Source: Chloroflexota bacterium
Lineage (GTDB): Bacteria > Chloroflexota > UBA5177
Direction of reading: 5' to 3'
Length of the DNA: 64,000 nt
NCBI GenBank assembly: GCA_051002135.1
Contig: JBPCMQ010000060.1
Coordinates: 144,008 to 208,007 of the forward strand
The translations under genes were made by a program, and so were the position numbers. This document shows, piece after piece, positions 1-36,340 of the stretch. Every line of letters begins with the position of its first letter. Within the stretch, counting starts at the first letter, position 1. Under the pieces are notes generated by a model. The model made no database searches, was not told the DNA's origin, and saw only the letters and a program-made list of their open reading frames with translations.

Positions 1-2686
1 CTGACCGCCGAATGCCACCCTCGTCCATGATGAGCTTCTTCAGCGTTTCCCATCGTTCTGTTGCGTGCCGACGCTGCTCTTGCCGCTCCTCCCATTCTCG
101 AAAGACCCGCTCCGCCTGCTCTTCATTCCCACCACGCGCTATCTCCCATTCATGCATCTTTCCAGACGCTTCGAAGGGGCCTAACGCCGGCATCACCGTA
201 AAGAAGCCAAACGGCCCCGCTCCAGTGTCCTTGTTTTGCTGCCACAACTGGTAGGTGGTCATTGTCACCTGGTGCATTGCCACGTGCTGAAGCTGGGGCA
301 GGCCATCAAGATTGATGCGGGTCTCGCCGGCCTCCACCCGCTCGATGAAGTGGTAGTAGAGATCGTACAGCCAGCGAGCACCGCCGAGCTTGTACGAGTC
401 GGGATTCCCATCCCGGTCTCTGGCACATGGAGCTGGGACATGGGTAGGGGACACGTAGTCACCAGGCGACGTCCAGACACCGGTGCCGTGCGAAGAGAAC
501 TTGCGGATGCGAAACCCTACGTCGCTGGTCTCCGACCCGGCGCAGCGGTTGTACAGCGCGTATCTCTTGAGCGAGATTCCGATGAAGTACAGCGGCTCAG
601 GTTTTCCCTCCCAGTAATTCTCCTTCTCAATCTCCAGAATCGAGTCGCCGTCCGCATAGGGAGACAACGGTGAAAACCACTCGACGACCTCCCGCACCAG
701 TGCTCGAAACCGTTCGCGTTCCATGCCCTCCGGCCGCGCGAAGAAAATCGAGTCAGTGTCACAGAAGGTATTGGGAAGGCCGCGTTGGACTCCGAGCGTT
801 TCGGCAAGCGCGATGAGGAGTCTGCCACCTGCCGGGATGTGTGTGCCGATGGGTCCCGCGAAGTACGGGCCGACCGCCTCCACGACGTGCGTGCGCCGTT
901 CCGTGTGATCCATGGCGTAGACATCCACGGGTGCGGTGTCGTAGGTCCGCTCCTCGGGATTGTCCTCGACCATGATGCCGTAGCTCGTGGCATTGGCCAG
1001 CAGCTTGAACCCCCGCTGTAGGCCATCGAAGTATTCCCACTCGACGCTGTCCTTCTTGCAGGCCTCCTGCCGGCGGATCACCTGATCGCGGAAGTTGATG
1101 ACGGTTGTAAAAAAGTCCTCCACGTTCAGGTCAATGGCGTACCGATCATCGCCGAGGAAATTCCAGGGTTTGGTCTCCACTCGCCCGTGGGGGACCAGCT
1201 CTTGCACCTCTTCGAAGGCCGGGACATTCCCTGTACGAAGGACGCTGACAATGACATCCGCCAGGGTGTACCAGGTGGACGGTCCAACAACATCCACCAG
1301 TGCAATGTTGGTTGACGCTGTTTTCTGGTCATACTTCCCTCGGACTGGTAGGACGGCCCCGTTAGGCTTGAGTCTGACGAAACACCGCAGCCGGCGCCAT
1401 GTTTCTTTCCGCTGGAGCAGAGTGAGGAGATCGGGAGACTCCAGTAGCTCCCTAATCTCGTGCGTACAGTCGCGGACCTCAATACGCTCTGCCAGCAGCA
1501 GCTCCTGGAGACCCACCAGAGCATGACCGGAGGGATACTCCGACTTGAAGTCAAGGAGTATTCCTTCAACGACCTGAAGACGGTTGTTGACCTCTGTCCG
1601 TCCGCCGTAGTACGCAACCATGCTGTGCCCGATGACCTCAGGGGAAAAGTCTGGATGCTGCTTCATGAACCGAGGGACGCCGAGGTCCTCGAAGTACGCC
1701 TTCCCCAGTGACGCCTCCGAGAAGATTTTCCAGATTTTCTTTGTGAGACCGTGCTTTCGGTAGAGCTCCCGCTCCTTTTGATACAGGCTGAAGGTTGCCG
1801 CCACATCCTGCCGGGCATAAGAGATATAGGCGTCGGTCAAGGCTTTACCGTGGTCACCGTCTGGAGACTTTTTGGGGTCAGTCTGGAATTTGGTGCAGAG
1901 TCCCTTCAGCGAGCAGTCGCCCGGACCGAGTAGGGCGCGGCCGAGGGTCATGGTGTCGAGGAACTTTCCCTTGTAGTGCTTCGTGTACTTCTTGCCGGTG
2001 GAGTTGTGATGCGACACGGAGCGAAACTCTATGCGATTCTTCATGGGGCCAAGATGTTTGATCCGAAGTGGTGGATGGTTGATGCACTCTTCATGCCCAC
2101 AATCGCAGAGGGTGAACCAAAAACCATTGCGATACGTGCCGGCGCCCTCACCATGGGTCGCGGACAGGACCGAGAGATCGAAAGCAAGGTTATGGTTGAG
2201 GCAGAGTGCCTGATAGCCGTAGATCCACTTATAGAAGACCTCGCAGACAAAGTCGTTCTTGGTCATGAGTTTCAAGCCGTTAAGTCGCGCGTACCGTGTC
2301 AGTACCGCCAGGTCATCCGGATTCATGTCGGGATTGTGGAAAAGGCCCTTGTCCGCCAGCGTATCGAGGGCTTCTCGATCCAAAGCGCCGCGTTTGAGCA
2401 GCCGTAGTCGCTTGTCACGGCTGATCCCGTGGACCTCGTAGCAGCCAAAGCGCAGCGTTTGGCTGACATCCGTGGTAGTTTCCGTGTCAACGACTAGTGC
2501 CCATCCTTCATAGGGCCGGCCAATCTCACGGATCGCTAGCTCCTCGGGTGACGGCTCTTCCTGGACCTTGTTATGGTTGCCACGCTTGGAGGCATCCGCT
2601 GTCGATTTGTCCTCGTGTTCCACGATGTAGGCCCGCACGTACTGCTGCATCTGATCGCGGGACGTCGGCACCTCTTCGGACGTCAT
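1..2686 (-). CDS. polB: Family B DNA polymerase (PolB), N-terminal 3'-5' exonuclease plus polymerase domain; partial. The start is at 2686 and the C-terminus runs off the left edge, so more than 890 aa lie in the window.
   Basis: Open minus-strand frame from an ATG at 2686 to position 1 with no stop; it is absent from the ORF track because the stop lies outside the window. Translation shows Exo I VVDTETT, an Exo II-like NLAFDLSVL, a YGYQ Exo III-like motif, motif A DFKSEYPS, motif B KLLANATSYG and motif C FCDTDSIFF. The + strand ORFs across 1-2700 are antisense artefacts. Confidence 0.85.
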   Translation of the reverse strand, partial: MTSEEVPTSRDQMQQYVRAYIVEHEDKSTADASKRGNHNKVQEEPSPEELAIREIGRPYEGWALVVDTETTTDVSQTLRFGCYEVHGISRDKRLRLLKRGALDREALDTLADKGLFHNPDMNPDDLAVLTRYARLNGLKLMTKNDFVCEVFYKWIYGYQALCLNHNLAFDLSVLSATHGEGAGTYRNGFWFTLCDCGHEECINHPPLRIKHLGPMKNRIEFRSVSHHNSTGKKYTKHYKGKFLDTMTLGRALLGPGDCSLKGLCTKFQTDPKKSPDGDHGKALTDAYISYARQDVAATFSLYQKERELYRKHGLTKKIWKIFSEASLGKAYFEDLGVPRFMKQHPDFSPEVIGHSMVAYYGGRTEVNNRLQVVEGILLDFKSEYPSGHALVGLQELLLAERIEVRDCTHEIRELLESPDLLTLLQRKETWRRLRCFVRLKPNGAVLPVRGKYDQKTASTNIALVDVVGPSTWYTLADVIVSVLRTGNVPAFEEVQELVPHGRVETKPWNFLGDDRYAIDLNVEDFFTTVINFRDQVIRRQEACKKDSVEWEYFDGLQRGFKLLANATSYGIMVEDNPEERTYDTAPVDVYAMDHTERRTHVVEAVGPYFAGPIGTHIPAGGRLLIALAETLGVQRGLPNTFCDTDSIFFARPEGMERERFRALVREVVEWFSPLSPYADGDSILEIEKENYWEGKPEPLYFIGISLKRYALYNRCAGSETSDVGFRIRKFSSHGTGVWTSPGDYVSPTHVPAPCARDRDGNPDSYKLGGARWLYDLYYHFIERVEAGETRINLDGLPQLQHVAMHQVTMTTYQLWQQNKDTGAGPFGFFTVMPALGPFEASGKMHEWEIARGGNEEQAERVFREWEERQEQRRHATERWETLKKLIMDEGGIRRS

Positions 2687-3216
2687 GGTAGGTCCCCAGT
2701 CCACGCCAATCGCAGGAGGCACGCGGGAATGGTGACGGGCCGGCCGGCGAATGCCTGGACGAACCACGCTGTGAATCGGAGCACCGCCAGCACTAGGTCT
2801 CGGCAGATGGAAGGTCGATCCTGGGGTGCGGTCCGCTCAATATGAAGCGAGCAGACATCCAGAATGCCCTGAAGGAGGAAGAGAAGTGGGCGGCTGCCGG
2901 CGGTCCACTCGCTGCTCCAGGCTTCTCGTTGCCGTTGTGACAGGAGCTGGTGACAGTTGAGGCAGGTAGGAATCGTCCATGTGGAGTTCCGCCTCCCGGC
3001 GACATGATTATCTTCAAGCGGTCCCCGGCATTCGCAGATTGAGCACCAGCCCTGCCGGCGACGATGGCCGTCGGCGCAGTTCAGGCACACAACCGTCCCA
3101 GCCACCTTGCGCACGCATGTCTGGTAGTACTCGCCGCAAGCACATGGTCCCAGCTCAGGCCGCACGACTGGCACCGTTCTCCGACGAAAACATGCGTTCA
3201 AAGTCCCCTGAGTCAA
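2683..3216 (-). CDS. HNH endonuclease-like zinc-finger protein
   Basis: CLNC...GH...EDNH...N...CLNCH arrangement (CxxC/HN/CxxCH) consistent with an HNH nuclease fold. Its TGA stop overlaps the PolB ATG (ATGA at 2683-2686), suggesting translational coupling. The ORF begins at a TTG; the true start may lie downstream. Confidence 0.6.
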   Translation of the reverse strand: MTQGTLNACFRRRTVPVVRPELGPCACGEYYQTCVRKVAGTVVCLNCADGHRRRQGWCSICECRGPLEDNHVAGRRNSTWTIPTCLNCHQLLSQRQREAWSSEWTAGSRPLLFLLQGILDVCSLHIERTAPQDRPSICRDLVLAVLRFTAWFVQAFAGRPVTIPACLLRLAWTGDLP

Positions 3217-3883
3217 AGTCTTGTTCGTCCAGCCATTCGAGCACCACGTTCAAATCTGTCTCCAGCCGGTACTGATTACCATCGACATCGCGGATGATGG
3301 TGTGTTTGAACCGTGCCAGAGATTGGTGCCCCTTACCGTTCTGGGCATTCCCGACAATGGCCCAGTACGTTCCCATCCGAGACAGATTCCTTTTGTCAAG
3401 GTCCACAGGAGGAAAGTACTCACCGTCGGACGTGAGAATGATTGAATGACCTGCCGGTCGTATACCCCAGCGGCGCGAGGTCCTGTCAGGCCGGTCAAGG
3501 AGCTGGTGCTCCTCGTTGACACGTCTCACCGTCTCCGGTGTTGTTCCCGCCTTCCTTGCCGCCGTTGTCAGTGAGTCGCCTTGGCTGATGTACTTAACGG
3601 TTTGGTAGTACTTGTCGAGCGTGCTTCCAGGTATACGTTCGATCTGGCCGATAGCCCGTAGACGAGAGATGGACGATTCACCTCTGGAAGAACGCGCATG
3701 CCCGCGCTGTTGAGCCTTGGTCAATCCAGGATGTGAACTGCCTTTTGTGCGTAAGTCGTATTCACTCGACTTGTAGATGCCGGGCGAAGCGCGTTGAATG
3801 CTACGAGCGGCTTCGCGCCCACTGACCTGCCGCGTTCTTCCCGTTTTCTTGTTGGTGAGGGTGTAGGTCCGGCGCGTGCTCAT
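3155..3883 (-). CDS. Hypothetical protein with a predicted helix-turn-helix region (element-associated)
   Basis: 242-aa ORF upstream of HNH/PolB on the same strand. The segment DKYYQTVKYISQGDSLTTAARKAGTTPETVRRV looks like an HTH. No family was recognised beyond that. Confidence 0.45.
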   Translation of the reverse strand: MSTRRTYTLTNKKTGRTRQVSGREAARSIQRASPGIYKSSEYDLRTKGSSHPGLTKAQQRGHARSSRGESSISRLRAIGQIERIPGSTLDKYYQTVKYISQGDSLTTAARKAGTTPETVRRVNEEHQLLDRPDRTSRRWGIRPAGHSIILTSDGEYFPPVDLDKRNLSRMGTYWAIVGNAQNGKGHQSLARFKHTIIRDVDGNQYRLETDLNVVLEWLDEQDFDSGDFERMFSSENGASRAA

Positions 3884-4383
3884 GACGCCGGCTCGCGGCC
3901 AATCGTGCCTTGGGTGGAGGGATGTTCCTGCCTAGTGCTACACTGATTTGACATTGTTTATTCCTAAACCTTGCCCTGTTGGAACCTTTGGTCGGGAAAC
4001 CAGCAGGGCAATTTTGTATTTGGCGCTATGTCGTGGCCGGGTGAGGCTCCCCTTTGCCGGACTGCTTCGAGGCGTCCCTATCCACGGGCATACAGGGACT
4101 CGGAAGGGAATGAAGTTGAAGATAATGGTCGAGGGCCATGGCAACGATGGCACTACGAGTGAGGCCGGTTCGTGTCGAAACTCGCCTCACAGCGTTTCCC
4201 AGAGACTGCGGGAGCATTACGGAAAACGCTGCCCGATCAACGCCGTTCTTGAGGTCATTCATCGGTGGTTGACTCCTGTAGGCTGGTTGTTAAAGGCACC
4301 CATCCGGCAGGCCTTGGGCACAGTCTCCCATTTGGTCCAAACATGACTTCCCGCTAAAATGTAGGTAAATACCGTCATGAGGA
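3884..4383. promoter_or_regulatory. AT-richer divergent intergenic region between the leftward HTH-HNH-PolB genes and the rightward HTH-Cas1 genes (putative divergent promoters)
   Basis: A ~500-bp stretch with visibly lower GC (for example ctacactgatttgacattgtttattcctaaacc) lacking a convincing ORF, flanked by divergently oriented genes. Confidence 0.3.
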
Positions 4384-5370
4384 ATGCGAGCTTTGGATCG
4401 GACACACACGATACCGGAGCTGGTCGCGGCAGCCGCTTCAAGCAACGTTGTGGTGAGCGAGCGCCAGATCGTTGAGTGGTGCCGGGACGGCCTTTTACCC
4501 ACGCCCTCACGACCTTCAATTCCGGGAAAACGTGGTCGTGGCCCGCTACGTTTCCCAGAGCCGGCTCCGGATGCCGTCGCATGGCTCGGTCGCTGGCGAC
4601 GCTCGATTGACGGAATTGAGCGGGTGAAGACGTGGCTCTGGCTTGAGGGCTTTGACTACGTCAGTACTGATGGCACCGCGATACAAGATGCTCTGAACTT
4701 GTGGATGAGAGCGGTATGGACAACGTTTCAGGCCGTATTCCCAGGGCTAACCGACACTGCGACGTTGCCGTCCGGAGAAGACTTAGGAATAAATGACGAG
4801 CGGCGAGACTCGATCCTGGATACGTTGGACAGGATCGTGACTGCACCTCTCGAAAACTCTGGCCATCAAGCCGGGCTAAGAGAACAAACAGATATCTCAA
4901 CGGCCCTGCTTGGAGTCCCGGTTAACGTGGAAAACTCCTCGGCTCCCTCCGCATTGTTGGCACTGGACGCTCTTAACAATCACTCGGCTGTTCGTCTTCC
5001 CATTAGCGCCATCCTCCAAACGCTTTGGGACCGTCAACCATCGATGGACGACTTCTACGACAAATTAGGACTGCCTGCGCTGATTCAAGGGGGAATTGAC
5101 ATTCACCACATTCGCCGGGTTTGGCAGGGAATAAGTGCGGCAGTTGAAGTTTTAGCATCGCCTGGCGTGCCGTCAGAGGTTCAAAACCTTGTGCCCCTAC
5201 TTCCGTTTCTCCAGGAAGTTCAGCGGCGATCCTTCGCCAGCGATCCCCGACTCATAACCATGGTGCTTGCTCTCATGATGCGCGTCGCTCGGCCTGGTGA
5301 TGCTGAACGATATGCCCGACGTATGGTGAATCGAAGGAATCGTATTCGGACGCACAATGCCACTCCGTGA
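4384..5370 (+). CDS. Hypothetical protein with an N-terminal excisionase/MerR-like HTH (HTH_17-like) domain
   Basis: The N-terminus IPELVAAAASSNVVVSERQIVEWCRDGLLP resembles Xis/HTH_17 DNA-binding domains. The gene overlaps the downstream cas1 by 14 nt, suggesting co-transcription. Confidence 0.55.
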   Translation: MRALDRTHTIPELVAAAASSNVVVSERQIVEWCRDGLLPTPSRPSIPGKRGRGPLRFPEPAPDAVAWLGRWRRSIDGIERVKTWLWLEGFDYVSTDGTAIQDALNLWMRAVWTTFQAVFPGLTDTATLPSGEDLGINDERRDSILDTLDRIVTAPLENSGHQAGLREQTDISTALLGVPVNVENSSAPSALLALDALNNHSAVRLPISAILQTLWDRQPSMDDFYDKLGLPALIQGGIDIHHIRRVWQGISAAVEVLASPGVPSEVQNLVPLLPFLQEVQRRSFASDPRLITMVLALMMRVARPGDAERYARRMVNRRNRIRTHNATP

Positions 5371-6784
5371 GTACCGGCACCTCACGTGCCCCCAGTGTGA
5401 GGCATCATTTGTCACCAAGGAACGCACACAAACCTATTGCTCGCGTGCCTGCTCATGTGCCGCCATGCGTTTGCGCCTTGCCGAAACACGAGCGTCCGGC
5501 GAGACTCCTGGACATGGTGGCACCGCTGCCGAGACTCGCCGTGCGTCCCTTGCAAAAAGACGTGCATCCGGCGAGGTTATGGGATGGGCTCTGCACAGAC
5601 AGAAGATGGCAGATGGAGAGGAGCGCATAGCGTCGCTTGATGGCCGGCCGGTCCTCGTGCCGGCACGAAACGGTGTGCCCGAGCACTTGAAGTTTACGCT
5701 CGACGGCGATGCCTACCGAGATGCCGGTGAACGCTGGGAGGTCCGTGCCGGCGCCATGGAGGCCTCGGCCACCCTGGTGTTGGCCGGCCGAGGATGTGGG
5801 CTGCGAGTCCTTCGAGGTGATCTTGTCGCACAACCAGGGCTCACGCACACGACCTGCGACGGTGAGGAGCGGCGCCTGTACCGAGGGCAACACGGAATCG
5901 AAACCATTGTGCTGGTGGGAACGGCCGGATCGGTGACCTTGGCTGCACTTCAGTGGTGCCGCGAGCAGGACATCACGCTCCTATCAGTGGATCGTGAGGG
6001 ACGCATCAGCGGTGTTGTCTCACCGGTCTCACCGGCCGCAGCGCATCTTCGGCGACTCCAGTACACGCTCCTTCCGCTCCACCTCGCCAGGATGCTGGTC
6101 TTATGGAAGCTCCGAGAATGCTGCCGCGACGAGCGAAGCTCCCAGCTGGAGGAGTACGCTCGACGCTGCGAGGACGCGGCACCCGTCGAGACGCTTCGGA
6201 CGGTAGAAGGCCAGGCCGCACGGGTCTACTGGCAGAGCTGGGAAGGCCTGCCTCTTACCTGGGTCGGGCCTCCCGTCCCTCCGCTCTGGCATCGCTTCGA
6301 TGGTCGAATATCGCCGCTATCGCAGTCCGGACGCCATGCGACACATCCCGTGAACGCAATGCTGAACTTTGCCTATGGCGTTCTCGCGGGCCACGTCGAG
6401 CGCTGCATCGTCTCCCGAGGCCTCGATCCCGCGATGGGCTCCCTGCACGCTCCGAAGGATGGCCGGCCCTCCCTCGTCTACGACCTCATGGAGCCCTTGC
6501 GCCCGCACGTTGATGCCCGGCTTCTCCCGTGGGCGTCGTCCCAGAGCTGGCGGCGCATCGACTTCCCCGTGTCCGTGTCCGGCGTCGTGCGGCTCAATCC
6601 GCAGCTGGCACGGTGCGTGGTGATTGTGGCGTCTCTACCGGCTGCCGCAGTGGAAGGCGTGCTCGACGCGTACGTCGGATTCCTGCGGTCGTCGGCCGGG
6701 CCGCGTGTGGGCGACCCCGAACGGTCGCGTGCTCGGGCGGGCCGTGCTCTGGGGAAGCGGCAGAAGCGGCTGACGAGGGCGTAG
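5357..6784 (+). CDS. cas1: Cas1-family integrase (casposase-like), with an N-terminal CxxC...CxxC zinc-ribbon extension
   Basis: Cas1 signature region NAMLNFAYGVLAGHVERCIVSRGLDPAMGSLHAPKDGRPSLVYDLMEPLRPHVD. Compare E. coli Cas1 [23 protein letters not shown], which contains the conserved His and Glu. The N-terminus CPQCEASF...CSRACSCAA is a Zn-ribbon. There is no cas2, cas4 or repeat array nearby; PolB lies 2.7 kb away. Confidence 0.85.
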   Translation: MPLREYRHLTCPQCEASFVTKERTQTYCSRACSCAAMRLRLAETRASGETPGHGGTAAETRRASLAKRRASGEVMGWALHRQKMADGEERIASLDGRPVLVPARNGVPEHLKFTLDGDAYRDAGERWEVRAGAMEASATLVLAGRGCGLRVLRGDLVAQPGLTHTTCDGEERRLYRGQHGIETIVLVGTAGSVTLAALQWCREQDITLLSVDREGRISGVVSPVSPAAAHLRRLQYTLLPLHLARMLVLWKLRECCRDERSSQLEEYARRCEDAAPVETLRTVEGQAARVYWQSWEGLPLTWVGPPVPPLWHRFDGRISPLSQSGRHATHPVNAMLNFAYGVLAGHVERCIVSRGLDPAMGSLHAPKDGRPSLVYDLMEPLRPHVDARLLPWASSQSWRRIDFPVSVSGVVRLNPQLARCVVIVASLPAAAVEGVLDAYVGFLRSSAGPRVGDPERSRARAGRALGKRQKRLTRA

Positions 6785-6975
6785 GGACACGACGGGCGAT
6801 GGTGCTCAATGGGGGTAGTGGAGCTCCCTCGGGCGATGGACACGGGCCCGAGCGCTGGGCGCTAAGCGGTCCCCGGAGCGATATGGGGTCAGAGGCCATA
6901 CGGGCTATGGAACGGCGTGGTGAGGCGCAGGGAAGCCTGTTTATGGTCGTCTAAGGTAGGTCGTGTCATGGCTAG

Positions 6976-7035
6976 GCGAGGATCGTTAGCTGCGAGGATC
7001 GTGCAGGCCGCCTTCGCCTGCTGCGAGGATCGTGC
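6976..7035. repeat. Three direct copies of GCGAGGATCGT(GC), two of them as CTGCGAGGATCGTGC with a 31-bp period, just downstream of cas1
   Basis: Copies at 6976-6986, 6990-7004 and 7021-7035. Nearby are the subrepeats cgggcgatgg (x2) at ~6793 and ~6829. The function is unknown; they may be terminal subrepeats of the element or binding sites. Confidence 0.5.
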
Positions 7036-7531
7036 GAGTGCTTTGACAGCTTGCGAGCGTCAGCGAAGATGACGAAACTGTTGACGGAGAGAGGCGATGA
7101 GGGAATACAGGCGTCACCTAGAGGGCAGCGTCTATATACCCCTCATGTTATCACAGGGGGTTTACACTACACGATTTCGAGGGGGCTTGACGGACGCTCG
7201 TCTCGCGGACGTACTGTCTGTCCTGGCCGCGGTAGACTCGGCCAGCGTCAGTCTCGCCATTGGACCATCCGCAGGCGCGGCTTTGAGAGAGCAAGGCCGG
7301 TCCGGACACTGGAACGTCCCGCCGGTCGCAGGGCACCTACCAGTTCGCAGTCACGCTGTTGAAAAAAGCCTGCGACATGTCGCTACGATGGAAGTGGCCC
7401 GGCAATGCCGGGTTGGTCGGGACCGGGCCCAGTGGGACCGAAAATGAGAGGGACTCTGGGATTCCATCTTCGATGTCGCCCCGTGGACCGCTCGCGCTTT
7501 CATACAGAAGGGCGACGCACAGCGCAGGCCA

Positions 7532-8116
7532 GTGCGAAGGATTCTCGGTATGCCGCATAGAAAGAAGGTTATCTTCAGCATTGCGCTTAGCGCGGGAGCA
7601 ACAATCCCAATAGCTCGTGCCGTGGCCAGACCGCTATCGGTCGTTCGCGCCGCTGGGGCTGTCTCAATTCCTCCCCACTGCCGGCCTGGCCCCAGGCCCA
7701 GAGTGCTCTCCTCACTGGTCGGTCCCGGCGTCGGATACTATCCGATCTGGTCGATAGGGATCGGCGGGCATCCAGCTACCCTCCCCTGCGGCAACTCGTG
7801 TGTACGGACCCCCCACGGCTGGGGACACAAGAACCTGCTGGTGGTTGCGCCACAGTTCCGCGGCCGAGTCACACTTCAGGGCAGTAAGGTCCACGGAGCG
7901 GGTCGTCTGTGGTTCGAGAATGAGGACCCCTACCATATCATGGTGAAGTACGTGAAGATCCTGCACATTGATCCCGATTGGCAGCGTATCCCTTCCGCGA
8001 AACGGGCCTACATCCAGTTCCCCGGCGGCATCATTTTCCCGCGACCCGGTCTGTACTACCTGAATGCACATTATCCCGGTGACAGTTGGTGTTTCACCTT
8101 TACTGCTCGCCACTAG
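7532..8116 (+). CDS. Hypothetical secreted protein (N-terminal signal-peptide-like segment)
   Basis: 194-aa ORF. The N-terminus MPHRKKVIFSIALSAGATIPIARA looks like a signal peptide. It is Gly/Pro-rich and no family was recognised. Confidence 0.4.
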   Translation: MRRILGMPHRKKVIFSIALSAGATIPIARAVARPLSVVRAAGAVSIPPHCRPGPRPRVLSSLVGPGVGYYPIWSIGIGGHPATLPCGNSCVRTPHGWGHKNLLVVAPQFRGRVTLQGSKVHGAGRLWFENEDPYHIMVKYVKILHIDPDWQRIPSAKRAYIQFPGGIIFPRPGLYYLNAHYPGDSWCFTFTARH

Positions 8117-8729
8117 CCACGCGCACACGTATTGAAGGATCTCGCTGTCCGCTGCGACAGCCGCGTCACTACGCACGAAACTGTCCTCGCCAGGCAGTTA
8201 CATACATCGTCGATGACTGCTGGATAAGTCGGACCCGTGCGCTCAATGACGGAAGCGAGAACGGAGCGCGTCAGGTCGCGAGGGATGCCATCAACGGATC
8301 GGACAACCCCTGGGGGCTCGCCGTGACGATACGCATCAATCGTGATCAAGGCAGTCCCGCACGCCGTTACCCGCTCGATGAACGCGGGCTCCAAGTCACT
8401 CTTGTGCCCTCCGCGGCTGTGAGCGTCGACAATCGCGTCATAGGGTCCTGCTCCGTGACCGCGCCAAATGAACCAGGTACATCACGCCCGCGTCGAACGA
8501 TCTCCGGGTCCGGAATCAGTGCGTTCCTCCGGACGAGTCTCCATTCTTTGATTCGCGTTTGTTGGCGCCTGGCGCACGCACTGCAACCCCCCGCGCACGC
8601 TGCGAGTAGGTTATCCGATGCCCTACCGCTTGTTCGCCCAAACATCCGGGTCACAGCCTGACGCGTCATGTCAGGTTCGTTCTGCAAGCTGGGCAGGTGC
8701 AGGCGATAGACCGTGTCGCCGACGGGCAC
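8113..8729 (-). pseudogene. Possible frameshifted gene remnant: two consecutive minus-strand ORFs in different frames
   Basis: ORFs 8367..8729 and 8113..8394 look protein-like (not Arg-rich) but overlap in different frames. The surrounding 8100-9200 region has only short overlapping ORFs on both strands. Confidence 0.25.
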
Positions 8730-9246
8730 ATCTCATTCAGCGGCGGTCCCGGCATGTTTTCGCGCAGATCGATGTGGGCATCACAGGTCTGGAGTATTGC
8801 CAGTCCTTTCGTGTCGATAGAGCTGACTCGCGAGGCGGCGCCCTCGGTCAGAGTTATCCGGGGAGGGCAAACCCTCACGGCAACCTTTAAGCCCAATCCG
8901 GGTGCTACCGGCAAGCCCTTCTACATGGATTCGACGTACTGCTCGACCGGTCCATCGGGCTCGTGGACGAACCAACATCTTCCCTGGACGATCCCCCTAC
9001 GCGACCCCCGTCTATCCGTACTGCAAGCAGCGGCAGTGGTGGCACGCTCATCGGGTGGCCGAATCATGCGGTGGCATTTGTGCGATACATCAGGCACTGA
9101 CAGCCGGACACTGTCGAGGAGCGACCCAGCGACGCGACGGCCCGCTCCGCACGGCAACGGTTGTCCTTGCTGATCCGATGGTCTTGTTTGTGTAGTCGAA
9201 AGGTCGCGATATTGCTATAGAGCGGGCTTGAGTATATACTAAAGGC

Positions 9247-9453
9247 ATGAGAAAAACAACCCTTACGATTGATGACGAGCTTATCGCGCAGGCCAAAGAA
9301 GCCTTGGGCACAACTGGTCTGAAAGCGACGATCGATGCCGCTTTGCGTGAGGCGGTCAAGGCGCGAGCACGGCAAAATCACGCGGAGCGGCTACGGACCA
9401 TGAACGGGCTCGACCTGGACAAACCTGAGGTGATGAACCAGGCGTGGGAATAG
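9247..9453 (+). CDS. vapB: Type II antitoxin VapB (DUF2191/RHH-like)
   Basis: [21 protein letters not shown] is the classic VapB N-terminus. It is 68 aa and overlaps the downstream PIN toxin by 10 nt. Confidence 0.8.
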
Positions 9454-9863
9454 ACGCGACATACATGGTGGACACGAGCGCTCTTGCGCGCTTCCCCAAC
9501 CCGGCGGTCTCTGCCATTCTCGCGCCGCTTTTCGCCGCTGGTCGCGTCGCTACCTGCGGGATCATCGATCTAGAGGTGCTCTACAGCGCGCGCAACCGGG
9601 CAGACATGATGGCACTGCGGCGTGAGCGTCGGGGCTTCGTCCAGGTACCAATCCTCCCTGCTGACTTCGAGCGCGCACTTGATGTTATGACCCTCCTGGC
9701 CCGACTCGGGCAGCATCGATCCGCCCGTATACCTGATCTCCTGCTGGCTGCGACGACCGAACGCGCGGGCCTGTGTCTGCTCCACTACGACCAGGACTTC
9801 GACAGGATCGCCGAAGTTACTGGACAGTGGGCAGAGTGGGTTGTGCCACGTGGCTCCCTGTAG
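9444..9863 (+). CDS. vapC: Type II toxin VapC (PIN-domain ribonuclease)
   Basis: The PIN N-terminus YMVDTSAL contains an acidic residue, and HYDQDF lies near the C-terminus. It is 139 aa and paired with vapB. Confidence 0.85.
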
Positions 9864-11010
9864 CCGCAATCAGAGCCGCCAGCAACGCGGCTCGCGGTGC
9901 GATGGAGTCCACGCGTACGTACTCGTCGGTGCTGTGCGCCCCACCCCCAATCGGCCCTAATCCATCAAGTACCGGCCGTCCGGCGGATGCGGCGGTATTG
10001 CCGTCCGAAGCTCCGCCCGTCGCGGTGTCCTTGACTTCCTGCCCTATGTCGGCCGCCAGACTCTGGTAGAGCCGAACGAGATCCGCGGTGGATTCCGACT
10101 TGTGCATCGGATGGTGATCGATGGTTATGTCAAGAGCCAGGTCGGTGCCATCAACGGAGCGATGGGAGACCGCGTCCTCGACGCGGCCAATCGTCTCCCG
10201 CAACAGGTCCAGCGAATGCGCTCGGAGCTCAAATCTGGCCTGGGCTTGGTCCGGTACCACATTAACGGGACCGCCCCCCTCGACCTTGCCAACGTTGAGC
10301 GTGACCCCCGGAATCGTCCCATTGAGGTGCTCCAGCGCGACGATGAGGTGCGCAAGCTCGTGGATCGCGCTACGTCCGTTCTTGTGGTTGACTCCGGCGT
10401 GTGCCGCCGTGCCCATCACGCGAAGCTCGCCGGTCGCCACGCCCTTACGGGCCGACACAATGTCTCCGTTCTCACGGCCGGCCTCGAGCACCAGCACGAC
10501 GTCCGCCTGCTCTGCCTCCGTTCGCACCAGCTCACGGCTGAATCGCGAGCCGGCCTCTTCATCGCTGTTGTACAAGATTGAGATCGATGCAAATGAGTCG
10601 CACGCCTGCCGGCGGAGCAGTCGCAGCGCATAGAGTATGGACAGAACGCCCGCCTTCATATCGCAGGTTCCCGGCCCGATGGCTCTCGCGCCATCGAGAG
10701 CGAAGGGACGCTCAGCAACAGTGCCTGCGGCGTAGACCGTATCCATATGCCCTAGAAGCAGCACCTTCCCCGCACCCGCGCCCTCGAATCCGACGACGAT
10801 GTTGTCGCCTACGGCGCCCTGCCGATGAATCTGGATGTGGCCGTCCATAGCCTCGTATTGAGCTTGCAGCCAAGCGCCAACGAGATCGACTCCTGCCTTG
10901 TCGTGCGTCCCGGAATCGATCGAGACCAAAGTCTTTAGATCCAACAGGTAGTCTTCGAGGAGCGCTTCCATGTCCACGACTGCTGTTTGCAGATCGAAGC
11001 CGCGGCTCAT
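9817..11010 (-). CDS. M20 family metallopeptidase (ArgE/DapE/carboxypeptidase G2-like)
   Basis: Metal-binding motifs HMDTV, DMKAG and SDEEAGS are present. The protein is 397 aa. Confidence 0.85.
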   Translation of the reverse strand: MSRGFDLQTAVVDMEALLEDYLLDLKTLVSIDSGTHDKAGVDLVGAWLQAQYEAMDGHIQIHRQGAVGDNIVVGFEGAGAGKVLLLGHMDTVYAAGTVAERPFALDGARAIGPGTCDMKAGVLSILYALRLLRRQACDSFASISILYNSDEEAGSRFSRELVRTEAEQADVVLVLEAGRENGDIVSARKGVATGELRVMGTAAHAGVNHKNGRSAIHELAHLIVALEHLNGTIPGVTLNVGKVEGGGPVNVVPDQAQARFELRAHSLDLLRETIGRVEDAVSHRSVDGTDLALDITIDHHPMHKSESTADLVRLYQSLAADIGQEVKDTATGGASDGNTAASAGRPVLDGLGPIGGGAHSTDEYVRVDSIAPRAALLAALIAATGSHVAQPTLPTVQ

Positions 11011-11070
11011 AATGGTGCCGCATTCCGTAGCTGGCGCAGTCCAGCAGCTTCGCGGAGGGAATCCACTCGT

Positions 11071-12036
11071 TTATCTCCTAAAGCCGACCTGGCGGTGCTG
11101 GGCGTAGGCGGGAAGCGCCAGGAGCCACTTCTCCACGCTACCGACCCTTGCCCTCTCGGTGAAGACGTCGAAGTTTCGCCGCTCAATCTTGACGAGGATC
11201 TGCTCGTAGAGGCGAGCGGAAAGGTGGACGGCGAACTTCGCGTAGGGGTCCAGAAGACCGGTACCGTCCTCGCCTCGCCGATAACGTTGGCGCGCCTCGC
11301 TCATCAAGAGCCGCATGACCGTGCGGAGCCCCGGGGAAAGGTGCCCCATGCGCACGGAATCCGGCGAGCAGCCGGCGCGAGCCAGCTCGGCCAGCGGCAG
11401 GTAGAGCCTGTCCCTACGGACGTCTTCGCCAACATCGCGCAGGATATTCGTGATTTGCATCGCGACCCCGAGATCGTTCGCAGCCTCGAATGCCTCTGGA
11501 GCTTCCGCCCCCAGGACATGCGCCATCACGATGCCGACACTGCCGGCCACGAGCGTGCAGTAGTGAATCAGCTCCTCGAGCGTGTCCACGGTTTGCATCC
11601 GCACGTCAAAGCGCGCGCCCTCGATTACTGTGACGAAGTGCTCGATTGGAATCCGATACCGGTCCGCCACTCGCAGCATCGGGCCCAGCGACGGAAAGGC
11701 TTCAGCCCGGCGGCCTAACAGCGCATCTTCCCATCGGCGTAGCTCCGCGAAAACCTCGTCTACGGACCCGTGTCCCGGCTCATCGACGAGGTCGTCGATC
11801 GTCCGAAAGTAGGCATATATCAGACGAACGTCGGACCTCACGGGTTGTGGCAGAAACAGAGACGCCAGATAGAACGTCCGCGCCCTTGAGCGCATCGCGG
11901 TATCCGGCCGCAGTAACGCCGGCGAGCATGGGACTCTACGCACCTGCCCAGTCCTCCTCCACGCGCTCCGCCGTGAGGCGGGATCCCATGATGACCATGG
12001 GGACGCCGCCCCCAGGCACCGTGCTCGCTCCGACAA
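11071..12036 (-). CDS. crtB: Phytoene synthase (squalene/phytoene synthase family)
   Basis: RTFYLASLFLP and YAYFRTIDDLVDE match the Asp-rich substrate-binding motif. The ORF's N-terminal extension overlaps crtI, so the true start is likely downstream. Confidence 0.8.
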   Translation of the reverse strand: MSERARCLGAASPWSSWDPASRRSAWRRTGQVRRVPCSPALLRPDTAMRSRARTFYLASLFLPQPVRSDVRLIYAYFRTIDDLVDEPGHGSVDEVFAELRRWEDALLGRRAEAFPSLGPMLRVADRYRIPIEHFVTVIEGARFDVRMQTVDTLEELIHYCTLVAGSVGIVMAHVLGAEAPEAFEAANDLGVAMQITNILRDVGEDVRRDRLYLPLAELARAGCSPDSVRMGHLSPGLRTVMRLLMSEARQRYRRGEDGTGLLDPYAKFAVHLSARLYEQILVKIERRNFDVFTERARVGSVEKWLLALPAYAQHRQVGFRR

Positions 12037-13432
12037 AGTACAGGTTGTCCAGGCCGGCGGCCTTGTTTGCCGGTCGCATGTACCCGACCTGGAAGAAACT
12101 GTGGGACAGGCCGAATGCGGACCCGCGGGTTACGTTGTAGTCGGCCACGAAGTCGTCGGGTGTGTAGATGCGCTCGAACACGACATGATCCTTGAGCTTC
12201 TGGAGGCCGACGTCCGTCAGGCGGTCATATATCTTCTGTTTGAACGCCTCGATCTCGCTGGTCCAATCGGTTGCTGGAGAGGAGCTGGGCACCGGCACCA
12301 GCACGTATAAACCCTCTTTACCGGCCGGCGCCAAGGAGCGATCAGTGCGGCCGGCAGCGCAGGTATAAAACGAGGGGTCATCCGGAAGACGACCGTGTCG
12401 GAAGATCGCGTCGAAGTTTCCGGCGACGTCGGCGGAGAGGTACACGTCGTGGTGATTCAGCTCCGGGTACTCTCGATCGAGTCCGAGAAACATCAGAAAC
12501 GCCGAGGAGCCGTGGTTGAGATGCCTCATCCTTGTCCGGTGCGCGGCGCTCTGCGCTTGCCTGGGTATCAGCGCATCATAGACGTACGGAAGATCGGCGT
12601 TGGCTATCACAACGTCCGCGTCGACGATTCTGCCGTCGGTAAGCTCGACCGCAAGCACGCGGCGGCCCCGCACCCGGATCCTCTCCACCTCGGCTCGCGT
12701 CTGCACACACACGCCCAAGGTCTCCGCCAGGCCGCGAAGACTCTCCACGATCTGGTACATGCCACCTCGGGGAAACCATATGCCCTGTTCAAGCTCCGTG
12801 TAGGGGAGGAGCGAATACACAGCCGGGGCATGATGCGGTGCGAGTCCGAGATACATGCTCTGAAACGTGACCGCGGCGACAATACGCGGGTCCTTGAAGT
12901 AACGGCGCGCGTGTCTGTCGAGCTTACGCAGCGTGTTGGTTGAGAAGAGATAGTACAGGTTGGCAGGCGTCGTGAACTGGTACAGATGATTGAAGTTGCG
13001 CTCCACGAAGCGGTCTCGCGACACCCGGTACTTGTAGCCGGCGTCATCGATATAGCGCCGAAAAGCATCTGCCGCTCCCGGTTCCAGGTCCTCCAGCTGC
13101 CGCGCCATCTTCTCTCGATGGGACGAGAACTCGAGGCTCCAGCCGTCCGCGAAGTGGACACAATAGTTGGGATGAATGCGCACGAGTTCGAGGTAATCTT
13201 CGAGGTCGTGGCCCACGGAGGCGAACAGGTTGTCGAGAACATCTCGCATCAGCAGAAGCGTCGGACCGGTGTCGAAGGTGAAGCCGTCCTCTCGCAGGAC
13301 GTTGCATCTACCACCGACACAGTTGTTCTTCTCCAGGACCGTCACGTCCCACCCGGCGTGCCGCAATCGAATGGCCGTCGCGAGCCCGCCGAGACCTGCC
13401 CCTACGACAACCGCTGACCTTCGCACACGCAC
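11936..13432 (-). CDS. crtI: Phytoene desaturase (CrtI family FAD-dependent oxidoreductase)
   Basis: N-terminal FAD motif VVVGAGLGGLATAIRL..VTVLEKNNCVGGR. It is 498 aa and lies upstream of crtB. Confidence 0.85.
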   Translation of the reverse strand: MRVRRSAVVVGAGLGGLATAIRLRHAGWDVTVLEKNNCVGGRCNVLREDGFTFDTGPTLLLMRDVLDNLFASVGHDLEDYLELVRIHPNYCVHFADGWSLEFSSHREKMARQLEDLEPGAADAFRRYIDDAGYKYRVSRDRFVERNFNHLYQFTTPANLYYLFSTNTLRKLDRHARRYFKDPRIVAAVTFQSMYLGLAPHHAPAVYSLLPYTELEQGIWFPRGGMYQIVESLRGLAETLGVCVQTRAEVERIRVRGRRVLAVELTDGRIVDADVVIANADLPYVYDALIPRQAQSAAHRTRMRHLNHGSSAFLMFLGLDREYPELNHHDVYLSADVAGNFDAIFRHGRLPDDPSFYTCAAGRTDRSLAPAGKEGLYVLVPVPSSSPATDWTSEIEAFKQKIYDRLTDVGLQKLKDHVVFERIYTPDDFVADYNVTRGSAFGLSHSFFQVGYMRPANKAAGLDNLYFVGASTVPGGGVPMVIMGSRLTAERVEEDWAGA

Positions 13433-36203: not shown

Positions 36204-36264
36204 CGCGCGAATCCTCCCGGAAGTCGCGAGTACTCGCGGGTCTGACTGTCATGGCCAAAGACAC

Positions 36265-36340
36265 CCGCAGTGTTATACATCCGTAGTGTTATACATGCGC
36301 AGTGTTATACATCCGCAGTCTTATACATCCGTAGCGTTGG
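36265..36340. repeat. 16-bp tandem repeat (~4.75 units): CCGCAGTGTTATACAT / CCGTAGTGTTATACAT / GCGCAGTGTTATACAT / CCGCAGTCTTATACAT / CCGTAGCGTTGG...
   Basis: Intergenic, with no unique spacers, so it is not CRISPR. The final partial unit is the 5' arm of the REP-like element at 36329. Confidence 0.8.

What the first reader, a model, noticed from the sequence alone, without database searches (positions are those of the whole stretch)
5357..6784. Cas1 carries an N-terminal zinc-ribbon extension and begins inside the preceding HTH gene
The first ~40 residues (CPQCEASF...CSRACSCAA) form a CxxC...CxxC module ahead of the Cas1 fold. Canonical CRISPR Cas1 lacks such an N-terminal Zn-binding domain, whereas transposase-like Cas1 homologs often carry accessory DNA-binding modules. 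The 14-nt overlap with the upstream excisionase-like HTH gene suggests the two are made as a unit, possibly an Xis-like directionality factor paired with the integrase.
Basis: seen in the sequence. Interest (0 to 1): 0.55.

Follow-up and report, generated by a model that had tools for sequence, protein, structure and literature searches.

The report
Zinc-finger casposase of a bacterial casposon
The gene is the Cas1-type integrase ("casposase") of a self-replicating transposon (a family-3 casposon) in a Chloroflexota genome, and both its N-terminal zinc finger and its neighbouring helix-turn-helix gene match an arrangement described for such elements in 2014, so it is a real but ordinary new member of a known kind.

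Summary
ORF 5357-6784 (475 aa) is a Cas1 homolog with an intact active site (E284, H364, D376, E379). It has a conserved N-terminal C-x2-C-x13-C-x3-C zinc module (C11, C14, C28, C32). It overlaps the upstream 328-aa ORF by 14 nt.

The zinc module is translated sequence, not an annotation artefact. At least 26 distinct homologs carry it at their N-termini, and AlphaFold models it confidently.

This is not a CRISPR Cas1. The 64-kb window holds no CRISPR array. On the other strand, upstream, lie an RHH gene, a conserved casposon HTH gene, an HNH nuclease and a family B DNA polymerase. This is the gene order published for the family-3 casposon NitAL212-C1 (Krupovic 2014: PolB-HTH, HNH, HTH, TipA-like HTH, "Zf-Cas1"). 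The Cas1 core is 43% identical to the NitAL212-C1 casposase, and the best PDB match by sequence and by fold is the M. mazei casposase.

The upstream protein has a MerR-like winged-HTH N-terminus and is homologous to the equivalent Nitrosomonas gene. An Xis-like role for it is untested.

A candidate right terminus (...TATATACCCC, ending at 7142) matches the conserved ends of related casposons. The left end lies outside the window.

Verdict: new member of a known kind, of low to moderate interest.

The parts
1..2686 (-). Family B DNA polymerase of the casposon. The window holds the N-terminal ~895 codons of a 1129-aa protein. The C-terminal part, including a terminal HTH-like tail, lies left of the window.
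   Evidence: The full ORF was read from the identical contig L001 3719-7108. The ExoI (D67, E69), ExoII (N166, D170) and ExoIII (Y290, D294) motifs are invariant in 18 homologs, as are motif A (D379..S382,Y384,P385), motif B (K561..N565..Y569,G570) and motif C (D643-T-D-S646). A profile of these homologs hits family B polymerases almost exclusively in the PDB (all hits at E below 0.1; Pol alpha at E 1e-5, archaeal PolB at E 5e-5). Pfam gives only sub-threshold hits. A homolog lies next to the Cas1 gene in 67 of 81 related genome loci.
2683..3216 (-). HNH endonuclease with Cys-rich zinc motifs (177 aa). JGI did not call it as a gene.
   Evidence: The motif C..C...LE(D/H)(N/H)H(V/L)AGR....T(I/V)P.CLNCH is conserved in ORFs at the same position in 15 related loci. 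This matches the 'HNH' gene of NitAL212-C1 and HenMar-C1 in Table S2 of PMC4046053. It has no Pfam hit.
3155..3883 (-). Conserved casposon protein of 242 aa. It is the positional equivalent of the 'HTH' gene NAL212_0252.
   Evidence: tblastn finds homologs at the same position in 21 related loci, with 33-42% identity in the Nitrosomonas and L002 loci. No Pfam hit. The HTH assignment comes from PMC4046053 Table S2 and was not tested here.
4026..4262 (-). Ribbon-helix-helix (CopG-like) protein of 78 aa, transcribed divergently from the HTH-cas1 pair.
   Evidence: It is 33% identical over 43 aa (E 4e-6) to the protein at the same position in L002, which carries Pfam RHH_1.
4384..5370 (+). 328-aa protein with an N-terminal MerR-like winged HTH (residues ~7-90) and a poorly modelled helical C-terminal region. 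It is the conserved upstream partner of the casposase gene.
   Evidence: AF2 gives pLDDT about 90 for residues 10-90, with the order strand-helix-helix-wing-helix-helix. Foldseek local matches are MerR-family regulators (5d90, probability 0.94-0.97, ~92 columns, E about 1). hhalign to the upstream proteins of the Nitrosomonas and Hyphomonas casposons gives probability 94.8%, E 5.4e-8. The published counterpart NAL212_0253 is annotated 'TipA-like HTH'. Only 7 homologs turned up in a 5.8-billion-protein search.
5357..6784 (+). Zf-Cas1 casposase, 475 aa.
   Evidence: Pfam Cas_Cas1, E 3.5e-40. The best PDB sequence hit is the casposase 6opm (E 2.2e-14). For the AF2 model (pLDDT 86.4), the best fold hit is 6opm_A (E 3e-18, TMt 0.78). 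The core is 43% identical (E 8e-85) to the published NitAL212-C1 casposase.
5387..5494 (+). Zinc-binding module. A beta-hairpin carries C11 and C14; C28 and C32 sit at the start of helix 30-46 (treble-clef or zinc-ribbon-like).
   Evidence: The four Cys are conserved in at least 26 distinct homologs. AF2 gives pLDDT 92-95 for residues 11-40. Pfam similarity is weak and sub-threshold: NinG N-terminus at E 0.054 and YacG at E 2.3. HHpred in PMC4046053 matched the NitAL212-C1 counterpart to the YacG C4 finger 1lv3.
5771..6694 (+). Cas1 fold: N-terminal beta domain (residues ~139-221) and helical catalytic domain (residues ~229-446). Catalytic codons are E284 (6206-6208), H364 (6446-6448), D376 (6482-6484) and E379 (6491-6493).
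   Evidence: The catalytic residues are invariant columns in alignments A1 and A3. The codons were read directly from the sequence. They align to solved Cas1 and casposase structures.
6976..7033 (+). Three exact direct copies of GCGAGGATCGT (at 6976, 6992 and 7023) between the cas1 stop and the candidate terminus. They are possible subterminal protein-binding sites.
   Evidence: the repeat finder family D1. The window has no other exact copy. Their function is inferred only.
7105..7142 (+). Candidate right terminus of the casposon, ending ...GCGTCTATATACCCC.
   Evidence: Twelve related elements end in (T/C)ATACCCC. These include Nitrosomonas loci that carry the published NitAL212-C1 TIR and seven loci with matching inverted left ends reading GGGGTATAG.... 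TATACCCC occurs only once on the + strand in the 2.4 kb between cas1 and vapB. My estimate of the number expected by chance is about 0.03. The left copy is absent from the window and from contig L001/L089, so this part is unconfirmed.

Best explanation
The ORF encodes the integrase (casposase) of a family-3-type casposon, a self-synthesizing DNA transposon, integrated in a Chloroflexota genome.

Shown here:
- The protein is a catalytically intact Cas1-fold enzyme. Its closest relatives are casposases.
- It is fused at its N-terminus to a conserved C4 zinc module.
- It sits at one edge of a block with the order PolB - HNH - conserved HTH protein - RHH - MerR-like HTH protein - Zf-Cas1. This order is shared with the Nitrosomonas casposons.

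Inferred from published work on archaeal casposases (PDB 6opm 'casposase bound to integration product'; PMC4046053):
- The casposase binds the terminal inverted repeats.
- It uses the 3'-OH ends of the element to attack the target DNA at staggered positions.
- The element's own PolB fills the gaps, producing a target-site duplication of about 14 bp.

Inferred, not tested:
- The zinc module is most likely an accessory DNA-binding domain for end or target recognition. It would fill the role that the C-terminal HTH, or C-terminal ZBD plus HTH, plays in other casposases.
- The MerR-like protein encoded just upstream is co-transcribed, and possibly translationally coupled through the 14-nt overlap. 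It probably acts as a DNA-binding regulator or accessory factor of transposition.
For: - Cas1 domain with intact catalytic residues.
- The best PDB match by sequence and by predicted fold is the M. mazei casposase 6opm.
- 43% identity to the published family-3 casposase of NitAL212-C1.
- The best genome hits are Nitrosomonas loci (37-39% identity across residues 8-444) that carry the published NitAL212-C1 TIR.
- A PolB homolog is adjacent in 67 of 81 related loci, and HNH and p242 are syntenic. The PolB motifs are invariant, and the profile's significant PDB hits (E below 0.1) are all family B polymerases.
- No CRISPR array in 64 kb, and no cas2 or other cas Pfam among the called neighbours.
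- The zinc module is conserved and confidently modelled.
- The three architectures seen among homologs are N-terminal ZBD, C-terminal ZBD plus a ~200-aa tail, and no extra domain. They reproduce the published description of NitAL212-C1, AceAut-C1 and HenMar-C1.
- The gene order is identical to Table S2 of PMC4046053.
- The upstream protein is homologous to its Nitrosomonas counterparts.
Against: - The left end of the element is outside the window and outside the only overlapping public contig. No TIR pair or target-site duplication could be shown, and the right terminus is only a motif match.
- No formal phylogeny with all casposon families and CRISPR Cas1 clades was built.
- No SD-like sequence lies within 5-12 nt of the 5357 ATG, and two gene callers prefer internal starts at M75 and M84.
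- The DNA-binding role of the zinc module and the role of the MerR-like protein rest on analogy only.
Confidence: 0.88

Rival explanations
1. The locus is a casposon-derived but immobilised or domesticated block. The Zf-Cas1, PolB and HNH genes would be retained for a host function such as defence or repair, and would no longer transpose.
For: Only one candidate terminus was found, with no left TIR or TSD. A type I R-M system abuts the PolB gene in contig L001, and a vapBC pair lies 2.4 kb to the right, giving the locus a defence-island flavour. About 2.1 kb of apparently gene-poor DNA follows the candidate terminus.
Against: All hallmark ORFs are intact and their catalytic motifs are conserved. 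The gene order matches elements with verified TIRs and TSDs. The terminal motif sits at the expected distance from cas1. Relatives sit in different genomic contexts; for example, L002 lies next to rpsT and holA. That is the expected pattern for a mobile element.
Confidence: 0.08
2. The zinc module is not part of the protein. Translation would start at an internal ATG (M75 or M84, as JGI and one NCBI record annotate), and the upstream in-frame codons would be untranslated.
For: JGI aa and one NCBI record aa. An SD-like GCGAGG precedes M75, whereas the nearest purine-rich stretch upstream of 5357 is about 18 nt away. Several homolog entries also start downstream (P0006-P0008).
Against: Residues 1-140 are conserved at the protein level in relatives at 50% and 25-28% identity, in the same frame. 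All four Cys ligands are conserved in at least 26 homologs, some carrying two copies. Extending the truncated relative P0007 upstream in L002 recovers the same motif. The AF2 confidence is above 90. The published NitAL212-C1 protein is annotated Zf-Cas1.
Confidence: 0.04
3. It is an orphan CRISPR adaptation Cas1, a remnant of or a distant partner to a CRISPR-Cas locus elsewhere in the genome.
For: NCBI names it 'CRISPR-associated endonuclease Cas1'. It passes the generic TIGR00287 cutoff.
Against: The 64-kb window has no array, and there is no cas2 or cas4 next to it. Every subtype-specific NCBIfam model falls far below its cutoff. The PolB and HNH synteny and the nearest relatives are those of casposons.
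Confidence: 0.02
4. One reading: the upstream MerR-like protein is an Xis-like recombination directionality factor made as a unit with the integrase.
For: It is co-oriented and adjacent to cas1 across the N-ZBD casposons and in a Hyphomonas element. The ORFs overlap or abut in the window and in L004, L005 and L006. The N-terminal fold class (MerR-like wHTH) is the one that many excisionases share (the link to excisionases is from general knowledge).
Against: At 328 aa with a large extra domain, it is unlike the small RDFs. In L002 the two genes are separated by 117 nt. The fold matches are to MerR-type regulators, not to Xis proteins, and they are statistically weak. No casposon excision mechanism requiring an RDF is described in the papers read.
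Confidence: 0.15

Closest known systems
NitAL212-C1, family-3 casposon of Nitrosomonas sp. AL212 (Krupovic et al. 2014, PMC4046053): genes NAL212_0249-0254, including 'Zf-Cas1' NAL212_0254 and 'TipA-like HTH' NAL212_0253
   Same: The gene order is the same: PolB-HTH, HNH, HTH, MerR/TipA-like HTH, then Cas1 with an N-terminal C4 zinc finger. The Cas1 core is 43% identical. PolB is 45-47% identical to the PolB of the NitAL212-like loci L004-L006 and L011. The terminus ends in ...ATACCCC, like the published TIR.
   Different: The host phylum differs (Chloroflexota rather than Betaproteobacteria). A longer linker lies between the zinc module and the Cas1 fold (~135 versus ~112 residues), and it carries a conserved GExPGHGGxAAExRRASLAxRR stretch. 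An RHH gene is present. A type I R-M system lies next to PolB, though whether it is cargo is unproven. No C-terminal HTH is evident, because only ~55 residues follow the Cas1 fold. The TIR sequence has diverged.
Methanosarcina mazei casposase (family 2; PDB 6opm)
   Same: It is the best solved-structure match by sequence (E 2.2e-14, residues 139-422) and by fold (E 3e-18, TMt 0.78). Both have the two-domain Cas1 fold and the catalytic E/H/D/E residues.
   Different: Identity is only ~21%.
AceAut-C1 and HenMar-C1 type family-3 casposases (C-terminal ZBD plus HTH, or no extra domain)
   Same: They belong to the same Cas1 clade (30-37% identity) and have the same PolB, HNH and HTH neighbours and the same conserved GGGGTATAG termini.
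   Different: In the Acidobacteria-type proteins the zinc module sits after the Cas1 fold, with a ~200-aa tail. The alphaproteobacterial ones have no zinc module.
CRISPR-Cas adaptation Cas1 (e.g. type I-C, I-D, I-A)
   Same: Same fold and catalytic residues. It passes the generic Cas1 models.
   Different: No array, no Cas2 and no subtype signature. It is linked to PolB and HNH instead.
YacG / NinG-N-terminus / 'FCS-YCS' type C4 zinc modules
   Same: The C-x2-C ... (Y/F)CS-x2-C spacing and the hairpin-plus-helix topology match. Tandem copies of the same module occur in small bacterial proteins found with the N-terminal query.
   Different: All Pfam matches are below threshold (YacG at E 2.3, NinG at E 0.054). 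No functional equivalence is implied.

Membership tests
Casposons (Cas1-encoding self-synthesizing transposons) | Cas1 homolog with the full set of catalytic residues (E. coli E141, H208, D218, D221 equivalents) | tested here: met
   E284, H364, D376 and E379 are invariant in 30 homologs and align with solved Cas1 structures.
Casposons (Cas1-encoding self-synthesizing transposons) | Family B DNA polymerase gene in the same element | tested here: met
   The adjacent 1129-aa protein carries all Exo I-III and Pol A/B/C motifs. Its profile's significant PDB matches (E below 0.1) are all family B polymerases. It is syntenic in 67 of 81 related loci. Pfam itself is sub-threshold.
Casposons (Cas1-encoding self-synthesizing transposons) | No association with a CRISPR array or other cas genes | tested here: met
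   TRF and the direct-repeat scan found no array in 64 kb. No Rfam hit in 1-12000. No cas Pfam among the called neighbours.
Casposons (Cas1-encoding self-synthesizing transposons) | Terminal inverted repeats | tested here: inconclusive
   A right-end candidate ends at 7142 and shares the clade's (T/C)ATACCCC terminus. No left copy was found in the window or in contigs L001/L089. A metagenome scan returned only chance hits.
Casposons (Cas1-encoding self-synthesizing transposons) | Target-site duplication flanking the element | not testable with these tools
   The left end lies beyond the window start and beyond the end of the only overlapping public contig.
Family 3 (bacterial) casposons | Bacterial host | tested here: met
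   Identical proteins are deposited as Chloroflexi/Chloroflexota bacterium MAG proteins (PZS02823.1, PZS02824.1).
Family 3 (bacterial) casposons | Cas1 belongs to the family-3 clade | tested here: met
   43% identity (E 8e-85) to the NitAL212-C1 Cas1 from the published alignment, against ~21% to the family-2 casposase 6opm. The nearest genome hits are Nitrosomonas and Henriciella/Hyphomonas-type elements. No formal tree was built.
Family 3 (bacterial) casposons | HNH endonuclease and conserved HTH genes accompanying PolB and Cas1 | tested here: met
   The HNH ORF 2683-3216 and p242 (3155-3883) are conserved at the same positions in related loci. The MerR-like HTH gene is homologous to the Nitrosomonas counterparts. 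The order is the same as in Table S2.
CRISPR adaptation Cas1 | Adjacent cas2 (and other cas genes), a CRISPR array, and a score above a subtype model cutoff | tested here: not met
   No array. The neighbours have no Cas2 or Cas4 Pfam hits. The best subtype models score 83.7-100.4 bits against cutoffs of 385-560.
Xis/excisionase-type recombination directionality factor (for the upstream 328-aa protein) | Small (about 50-120 aa) winged-helix protein encoded next to the integrase, required for excision | tested here: not met
   Adjacency is met and a MerR-like wHTH fold is plausible. However, the protein is 328 aa with a large additional domain. It has no Pfam excisionase or HTH_17 hit. Function cannot be tested here.
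YacG-like / treble-clef C4 zinc finger (for residues 7-46) | Four conserved Cys ligands on a hairpin plus a helix N-terminus; match to a curated family model | tested here: inconclusive
   The ligands and topology are met. The Pfam matches are sub-threshold (YacG at E 2.3, NinG at E 0.054). Metal binding was not tested.

The most novel reading that the evidence does not exclude
The N-ZBD casposons (the Chloroflexota and Nitrosomonas lineages) may use a two-part DNA-recognition system. One part would be the casposase's own zinc module plus its conserved basic linker. The other would be the co-expressed ~300-330-aa MerR-like partner. Together they would bind the subterminal GCGAGGATCGT-type repeats and set target choice or the direction of the reaction (integration versus excision). 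That would be functionally analogous to Int-Xis or TnsAB-TnsD. The element may also carry a complete type I restriction-modification system as cargo, which would make it a self-replicating vehicle for defence genes.
Probability: 0.15. Interest if true: 0.5.

Novelty: new member of a known kind. Interest (0 to 1): 0.3.

Why it matters
Casposons are regarded as the ancestors of the CRISPR adaptation machinery, and only archaeal (family 2) casposases have been studied biochemically and structurally. This locus adds a Chloroflexota representative of the bacterial family 3. It also shows, from more than 80 genome loci, that the three published casposase architectures are lineage-wide features rather than one-off fusions: an N-terminal zinc module, a C-terminal zinc module plus tail, and no extra domain. 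In practical terms, public annotations call the gene 'CRISPR-associated endonuclease Cas1'. Two of three pipelines cut off the zinc module, and the PolB and HNH genes have no above-threshold Pfam match. The locus could therefore easily be miscounted as an orphan CRISPR gene. None of this changes current understanding, because the architecture was already described in 2014.

Tried and rejected
- TIR search within L001. An inverted-repeat search of 17 kb found no pair linking the region downstream of cas1 to the region left of PolB.
- Left terminus by sequence. Exact and 3-mismatch searches for the inverted terminus in L001, L089 and the whole window found only the right copy.
- Metagenome scan for GGGGTATATAGACGCTGC. 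It returned six unrelated contigs with no similarity to the element.
- Reaching further left. The p242 look-up showed that the longest identical contig ends inside hsdR. The 392-aa NCBI variant is not on record. One look-up was wasted on wrong minus-strand coordinates.
- Polymorphism data for the N-terminus. All overlapping public contigs are 100% identical to the window, so no dN/dS test was possible.
- Pfam and NCBIfam for the upstream 328-aa, 242-aa, 177-aa and 78-aa proteins gave no significant hits. A PDB profile search with the 328-aa family also found nothing.
- Single-sequence PDB search with PolB found nothing. Only the 18-sequence profile worked.
- piPolB or protein-primed PolB hybrid element. 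I considered this because Pfam gave only a weak DNA_pol_B_2 hit. I rejected it because the polymerase is the same one found in the Nitrosomonas and Henriciella-type casposons.
- The LRR protein P0054 among the N-terminal hits is a compositional artefact.
- The promoter and terminator scan of 3900-7400 was uninformative.
- ORFs in 7143-9246 have no family hits.


Full report
**1. Checking the observation**

ORF 5357..6784 (+, ATG, 475 aa) and the upstream ORF 4384..5370 (+, 328 aa) both exist. They overlap by 14 nt in different frames.

The 475-aa product is a Cas1. Pfam PF01867 matches at E 3.5e-40 over residues 177-419. The generic NCBIfam model TIGR00287 scores 103.9 bits against a cutoff of 71.7. 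Every CRISPR-subtype model is far below its cutoff.

The N-terminus reads MPLREYRHLTCPQCEASFVTKERTQTYCSRACSCAA. The conserved ligand pattern is C11-x2-C14-x13-C28-x3-C32.

**2. Is the zinc module really translated?**

5357 is the first possible start after the upstream in-frame stop, and codons 2-10 contain no ATG, GTG or TTG. A protein that includes C11 must therefore start at 5357.

Gene callers disagree on the start. NCBI PZS02823.1 is the 475-aa form, JGI starts at M75 (401 aa), and another NCBI record starts at M84 (392 aa). No good SD sequence lies 5-12 nt upstream of 5357.

Conservation decides the matter:
- Residues 1-140 match the translated DNA of the ~50%-identical relative L002 at 54% identity over 134 aa (E 4e-29). 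They match the Nitrosomonas loci at 25-28% identity, in the same frame.
- Extending the truncated homolog P0007 upstream in L002 recovers CPQCQQLF...YCSQVC.
- At least 26 distinct Cas1 homologs carry the motif at their N-termini. Two of them carry it twice.

AlphaFold2, run with a 30-sequence alignment, gave mean pLDDT 86.4. It models residues 7-46 as a beta-hairpin followed by a helix, with pLDDT 92-95. This places the two Cys pairs as in a treble-clef or zinc-ribbon module.

A search of 1.84 billion representative proteins with residues 1-140 found only 36 hits. They were mostly Cas1 fragments. The rest were mainly small proteins made of tandem CPxCGxxF...RQKYCSxxC repeats. Pfam similarity to NinG and YacG is sub-threshold.

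**3. Catalytic residues**

E284, H364, D376 and E379 are invariant in the 20- and 30-sequence alignments. They align with the EG.AA..Y and LH...DLxEpxR motifs of solved Cas1 proteins. I checked the codons directly in the sequence.

**4. What the locus is**

The 64-kb window has no CRISPR array. There is no Rfam match near the gene and no cas2 or cas4 among the called neighbours.

The best PDB match by sequence is the M. mazei casposase 6opm (E 2.2e-14). The best match by predicted fold is also 6opm_A (E 3e-18, TMt 0.78).

An identical public contig (L001/L089, 100% over 9.3 kb) shows the genes on the other strand, upstream:
- a 78-aa RHH protein (4026-4262);
- a 242-aa conserved protein (3155-3883);
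- an uncalled 177-aa HNH-type ORF (2683-3216);
- a 1129-aa protein whose gene runs off the left edge of the window (window 1-2686).

The 1129-aa protein has no above-threshold Pfam hit and no single-sequence PDB hit. It nevertheless shows every family B polymerase motif: DxE, Nx3FD, Yx3D, DxxSxYPS, Kx3NSxYG and DTDS. All are invariant across 18 homologs. A profile of those homologs hits DNA polymerase alpha, archaeal PolB and Pol II; every PDB hit below E 0.1 is a family B polymerase.

A genome scan found 79 related loci. A homolog of this PolB lies next to the Cas1 gene in 67 of the 81 loci searched (those 79 plus the two metagenome contigs L002 and L003), and the HNH and 242-aa genes sit in the same order.

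**5. Comparison with the literature**

Krupovic et al. 2014 (PMC4046053) defined the bacterial family-3 casposons. They state that the Cas1 of NitAL212-C1 has a zinc-binding domain at its N-terminus, that AceAut-C1 has ZBD plus HTH at the C-terminus, and that HenMar-C1 and StrAlb-C1 have no extra domain.

Their Table S2 lists NitAL212-C1 as: SFI helicase, PolB-HTH, (IS1595), HNH, HTH, 'TipA-like HTH' (NAL212_0253), and 'Zf-Cas1' (NAL212_0254, with its N-terminus matching the C4 Zn finger of YacG, 1lv3). Apart from the leading SFI helicase and the IS1595 insertion, this is the gene order seen in the window.

The Cas1 core of the window is 43% identical (E 8e-85) to the NitAL212-C1 sequence taken from their supplementary alignment. 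The Nitrosomonas loci recovered here carry the published TIR.

The related loci fall into the same three architectures:
- N-terminal ZBD in Nitrosomonas and the Chloroflexi-like clade;
- C-terminal CxxC...CxxC plus a ~200-aa tail in Acidobacteria;
- no extra domain in Alphaproteobacteria.

**6. The upstream gene**

The 328-aa protein has no family hit and only seven homologs in the 5.8-billion-protein search.

Its AF2 model is confident only for residues ~10-90, where it forms a winged HTH. The remainder is helical and poorly modelled. Foldseek gives no significant global match. The best local matches are MerR-family regulators (HiNmlR, CadR, SoxR), with probability up to 0.97 over ~92 columns but E about 1.

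ORFs of 301-338 aa occupy the same position in Nitrosomonas loci (L004, L005, L006, L011) and in a Hyphomonas element. They share the W..GLLP.P...G.GRG motif. Profile-profile comparison gives probability 94.8%, E 5.4e-8. This gene is therefore the counterpart of the published 'TipA-like HTH' gene.

The gene pair is conserved, but the overlap is not. L002 has a 117-nt gap, whereas the Nitrosomonas ORFs overlap or abut cas1. An Xis-like directionality role cannot be tested here, and the protein's size argues against a classical RDF.

**7. Ends of the element**

Twelve related elements end in ...(T/C)ATACCCC. For seven of them, an inverted GGGGTATAG... left end is visible in the same locus.

The window contains ...GCGTCTATATACCCC ending at 7142, which is 358 nt after the cas1 stop. 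No other copy of this terminus sequence was found in the window, even allowing three mismatches. Three exact GCGAGGATCGT direct repeats lie just inside it, at 6976-7033.

The inverted left copy is not in the window or in the 19-kb public contig, which ends inside hsdR. A metagenome scan found only chance matches. TIR and TSD therefore remain unconfirmed. It is also unknown whether the type I R-M genes next to PolB are cargo.

**8. Mechanism**

Shown: an intact casposase with an N-terminal C4 zinc module, lying within a PolB/HNH/HTH casposon gene set.

Inferred from published casposase work (6opm; PMC4046053): the casposase binds the element's ends, makes staggered 3'-OH attacks on the target, and PolB-mediated repair yields a ~14-bp duplication.

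Inferred by analogy only: the zinc module serves as an end- or target-recognition domain, and the MerR-like partner is a co-expressed regulator or accessory DNA-binding factor.

**9. Verdict**

It belongs to an architecture published in 2014.

What is new is modest:
- a Chloroflexota host;
- a divergent sub-clade, ~43% identical to the nearest described casposase and found mostly in metagenomes;
- a conserved linker motif;
- annotation pitfalls, namely truncated start calls, PolB and HNH invisible to Pfam, and the name 'CRISPR-associated'.

Novelty: new member of a known kind. Interest: about 0.3.

Noticed in passing
window 6976-7033: Three exact direct copies of GCGAGGATCGT, with start-to-start spacing of 16 and 31 nt. 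Two of them are embedded in a 16-nt repeat, GCTGCGAGGATCGTGC. They lie between the cas1 stop and the candidate casposon terminus. The relative L002 has GAGGATCC/GACGATCC-type repeats in the equivalent place. They could be subterminal protein-binding sites.
   Followed up: partly
window 7143-9246: About 2.1 kb between the candidate casposon end and vapB has no recognisable gene. The ORFs 7532-8116, 8113-8394, 8367-8729 and 8697-9173 have no Pfam hits, and JGI calls only a 58-aa gene here. Its nature is unexplained; it could be a decayed insertion or target-site DNA.
   Followed up: partly
L001 1-3345 (left of the window start; identical contig): A complete type I restriction-modification system (hsdM, hsdS, hsdR) lies directly beyond the PolB gene. 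It may be cargo of the casposon, but the left end of the element was not found.
   Followed up: partly
window 2683-3216 (-): The HNH-type ORF (177 aa) was not called in the JGI annotation. It overlaps the stop-proximal end of the 242-aa gene by 62 nt and abuts the PolB start. It is conserved in 15 related loci, so it is a missed gene.
   Followed up: yes
window 5357 / 5579 / 5606: Three public annotations of the same cas1 gene use three different starts, giving 475, 401 and 392 aa. Two of them delete the zinc module. Several database homologs (P0003, P0006-P0008) are likewise truncated at the N-terminus.
   Followed up: yes
P0005 and P0046 (homologs, not in the window): Two casposase homologs carry two tandem copies of the N-terminal zinc module. 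Unrelated small proteins (P0061, P0063, P0066, P0070) consist of 2-5 tandem copies of the same CPxCGxxF...RQKYCSxxC unit.
   Followed up: partly
window 9247-9863: A vapB/vapC (PIN) toxin-antitoxin pair. It is followed on the minus strand by an M20 peptidase (9817-11010) and by the carotenoid genes phytoene synthase (11071-12036) and phytoene desaturase (11936-13432). These are host genes flanking the element.
   Followed up: no
window 36261-36340: A tandem array of about 4.4 copies of a 16-nt unit (ACATCCGCAGTGTTAT), followed by a short GCCTTCAGGCC repeat. It is unrelated to the casposon.
   Followed up: no
L002 1-11146 (related metagenome locus): The ~50%-identical relative carries extra genes between the RHH gene and the p242 homolog: an SNF2-family helicase and several unknown ORFs. 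It is inserted next to rpsT and holA. This shows variable cargo and a different insertion context.
   Followed up: no
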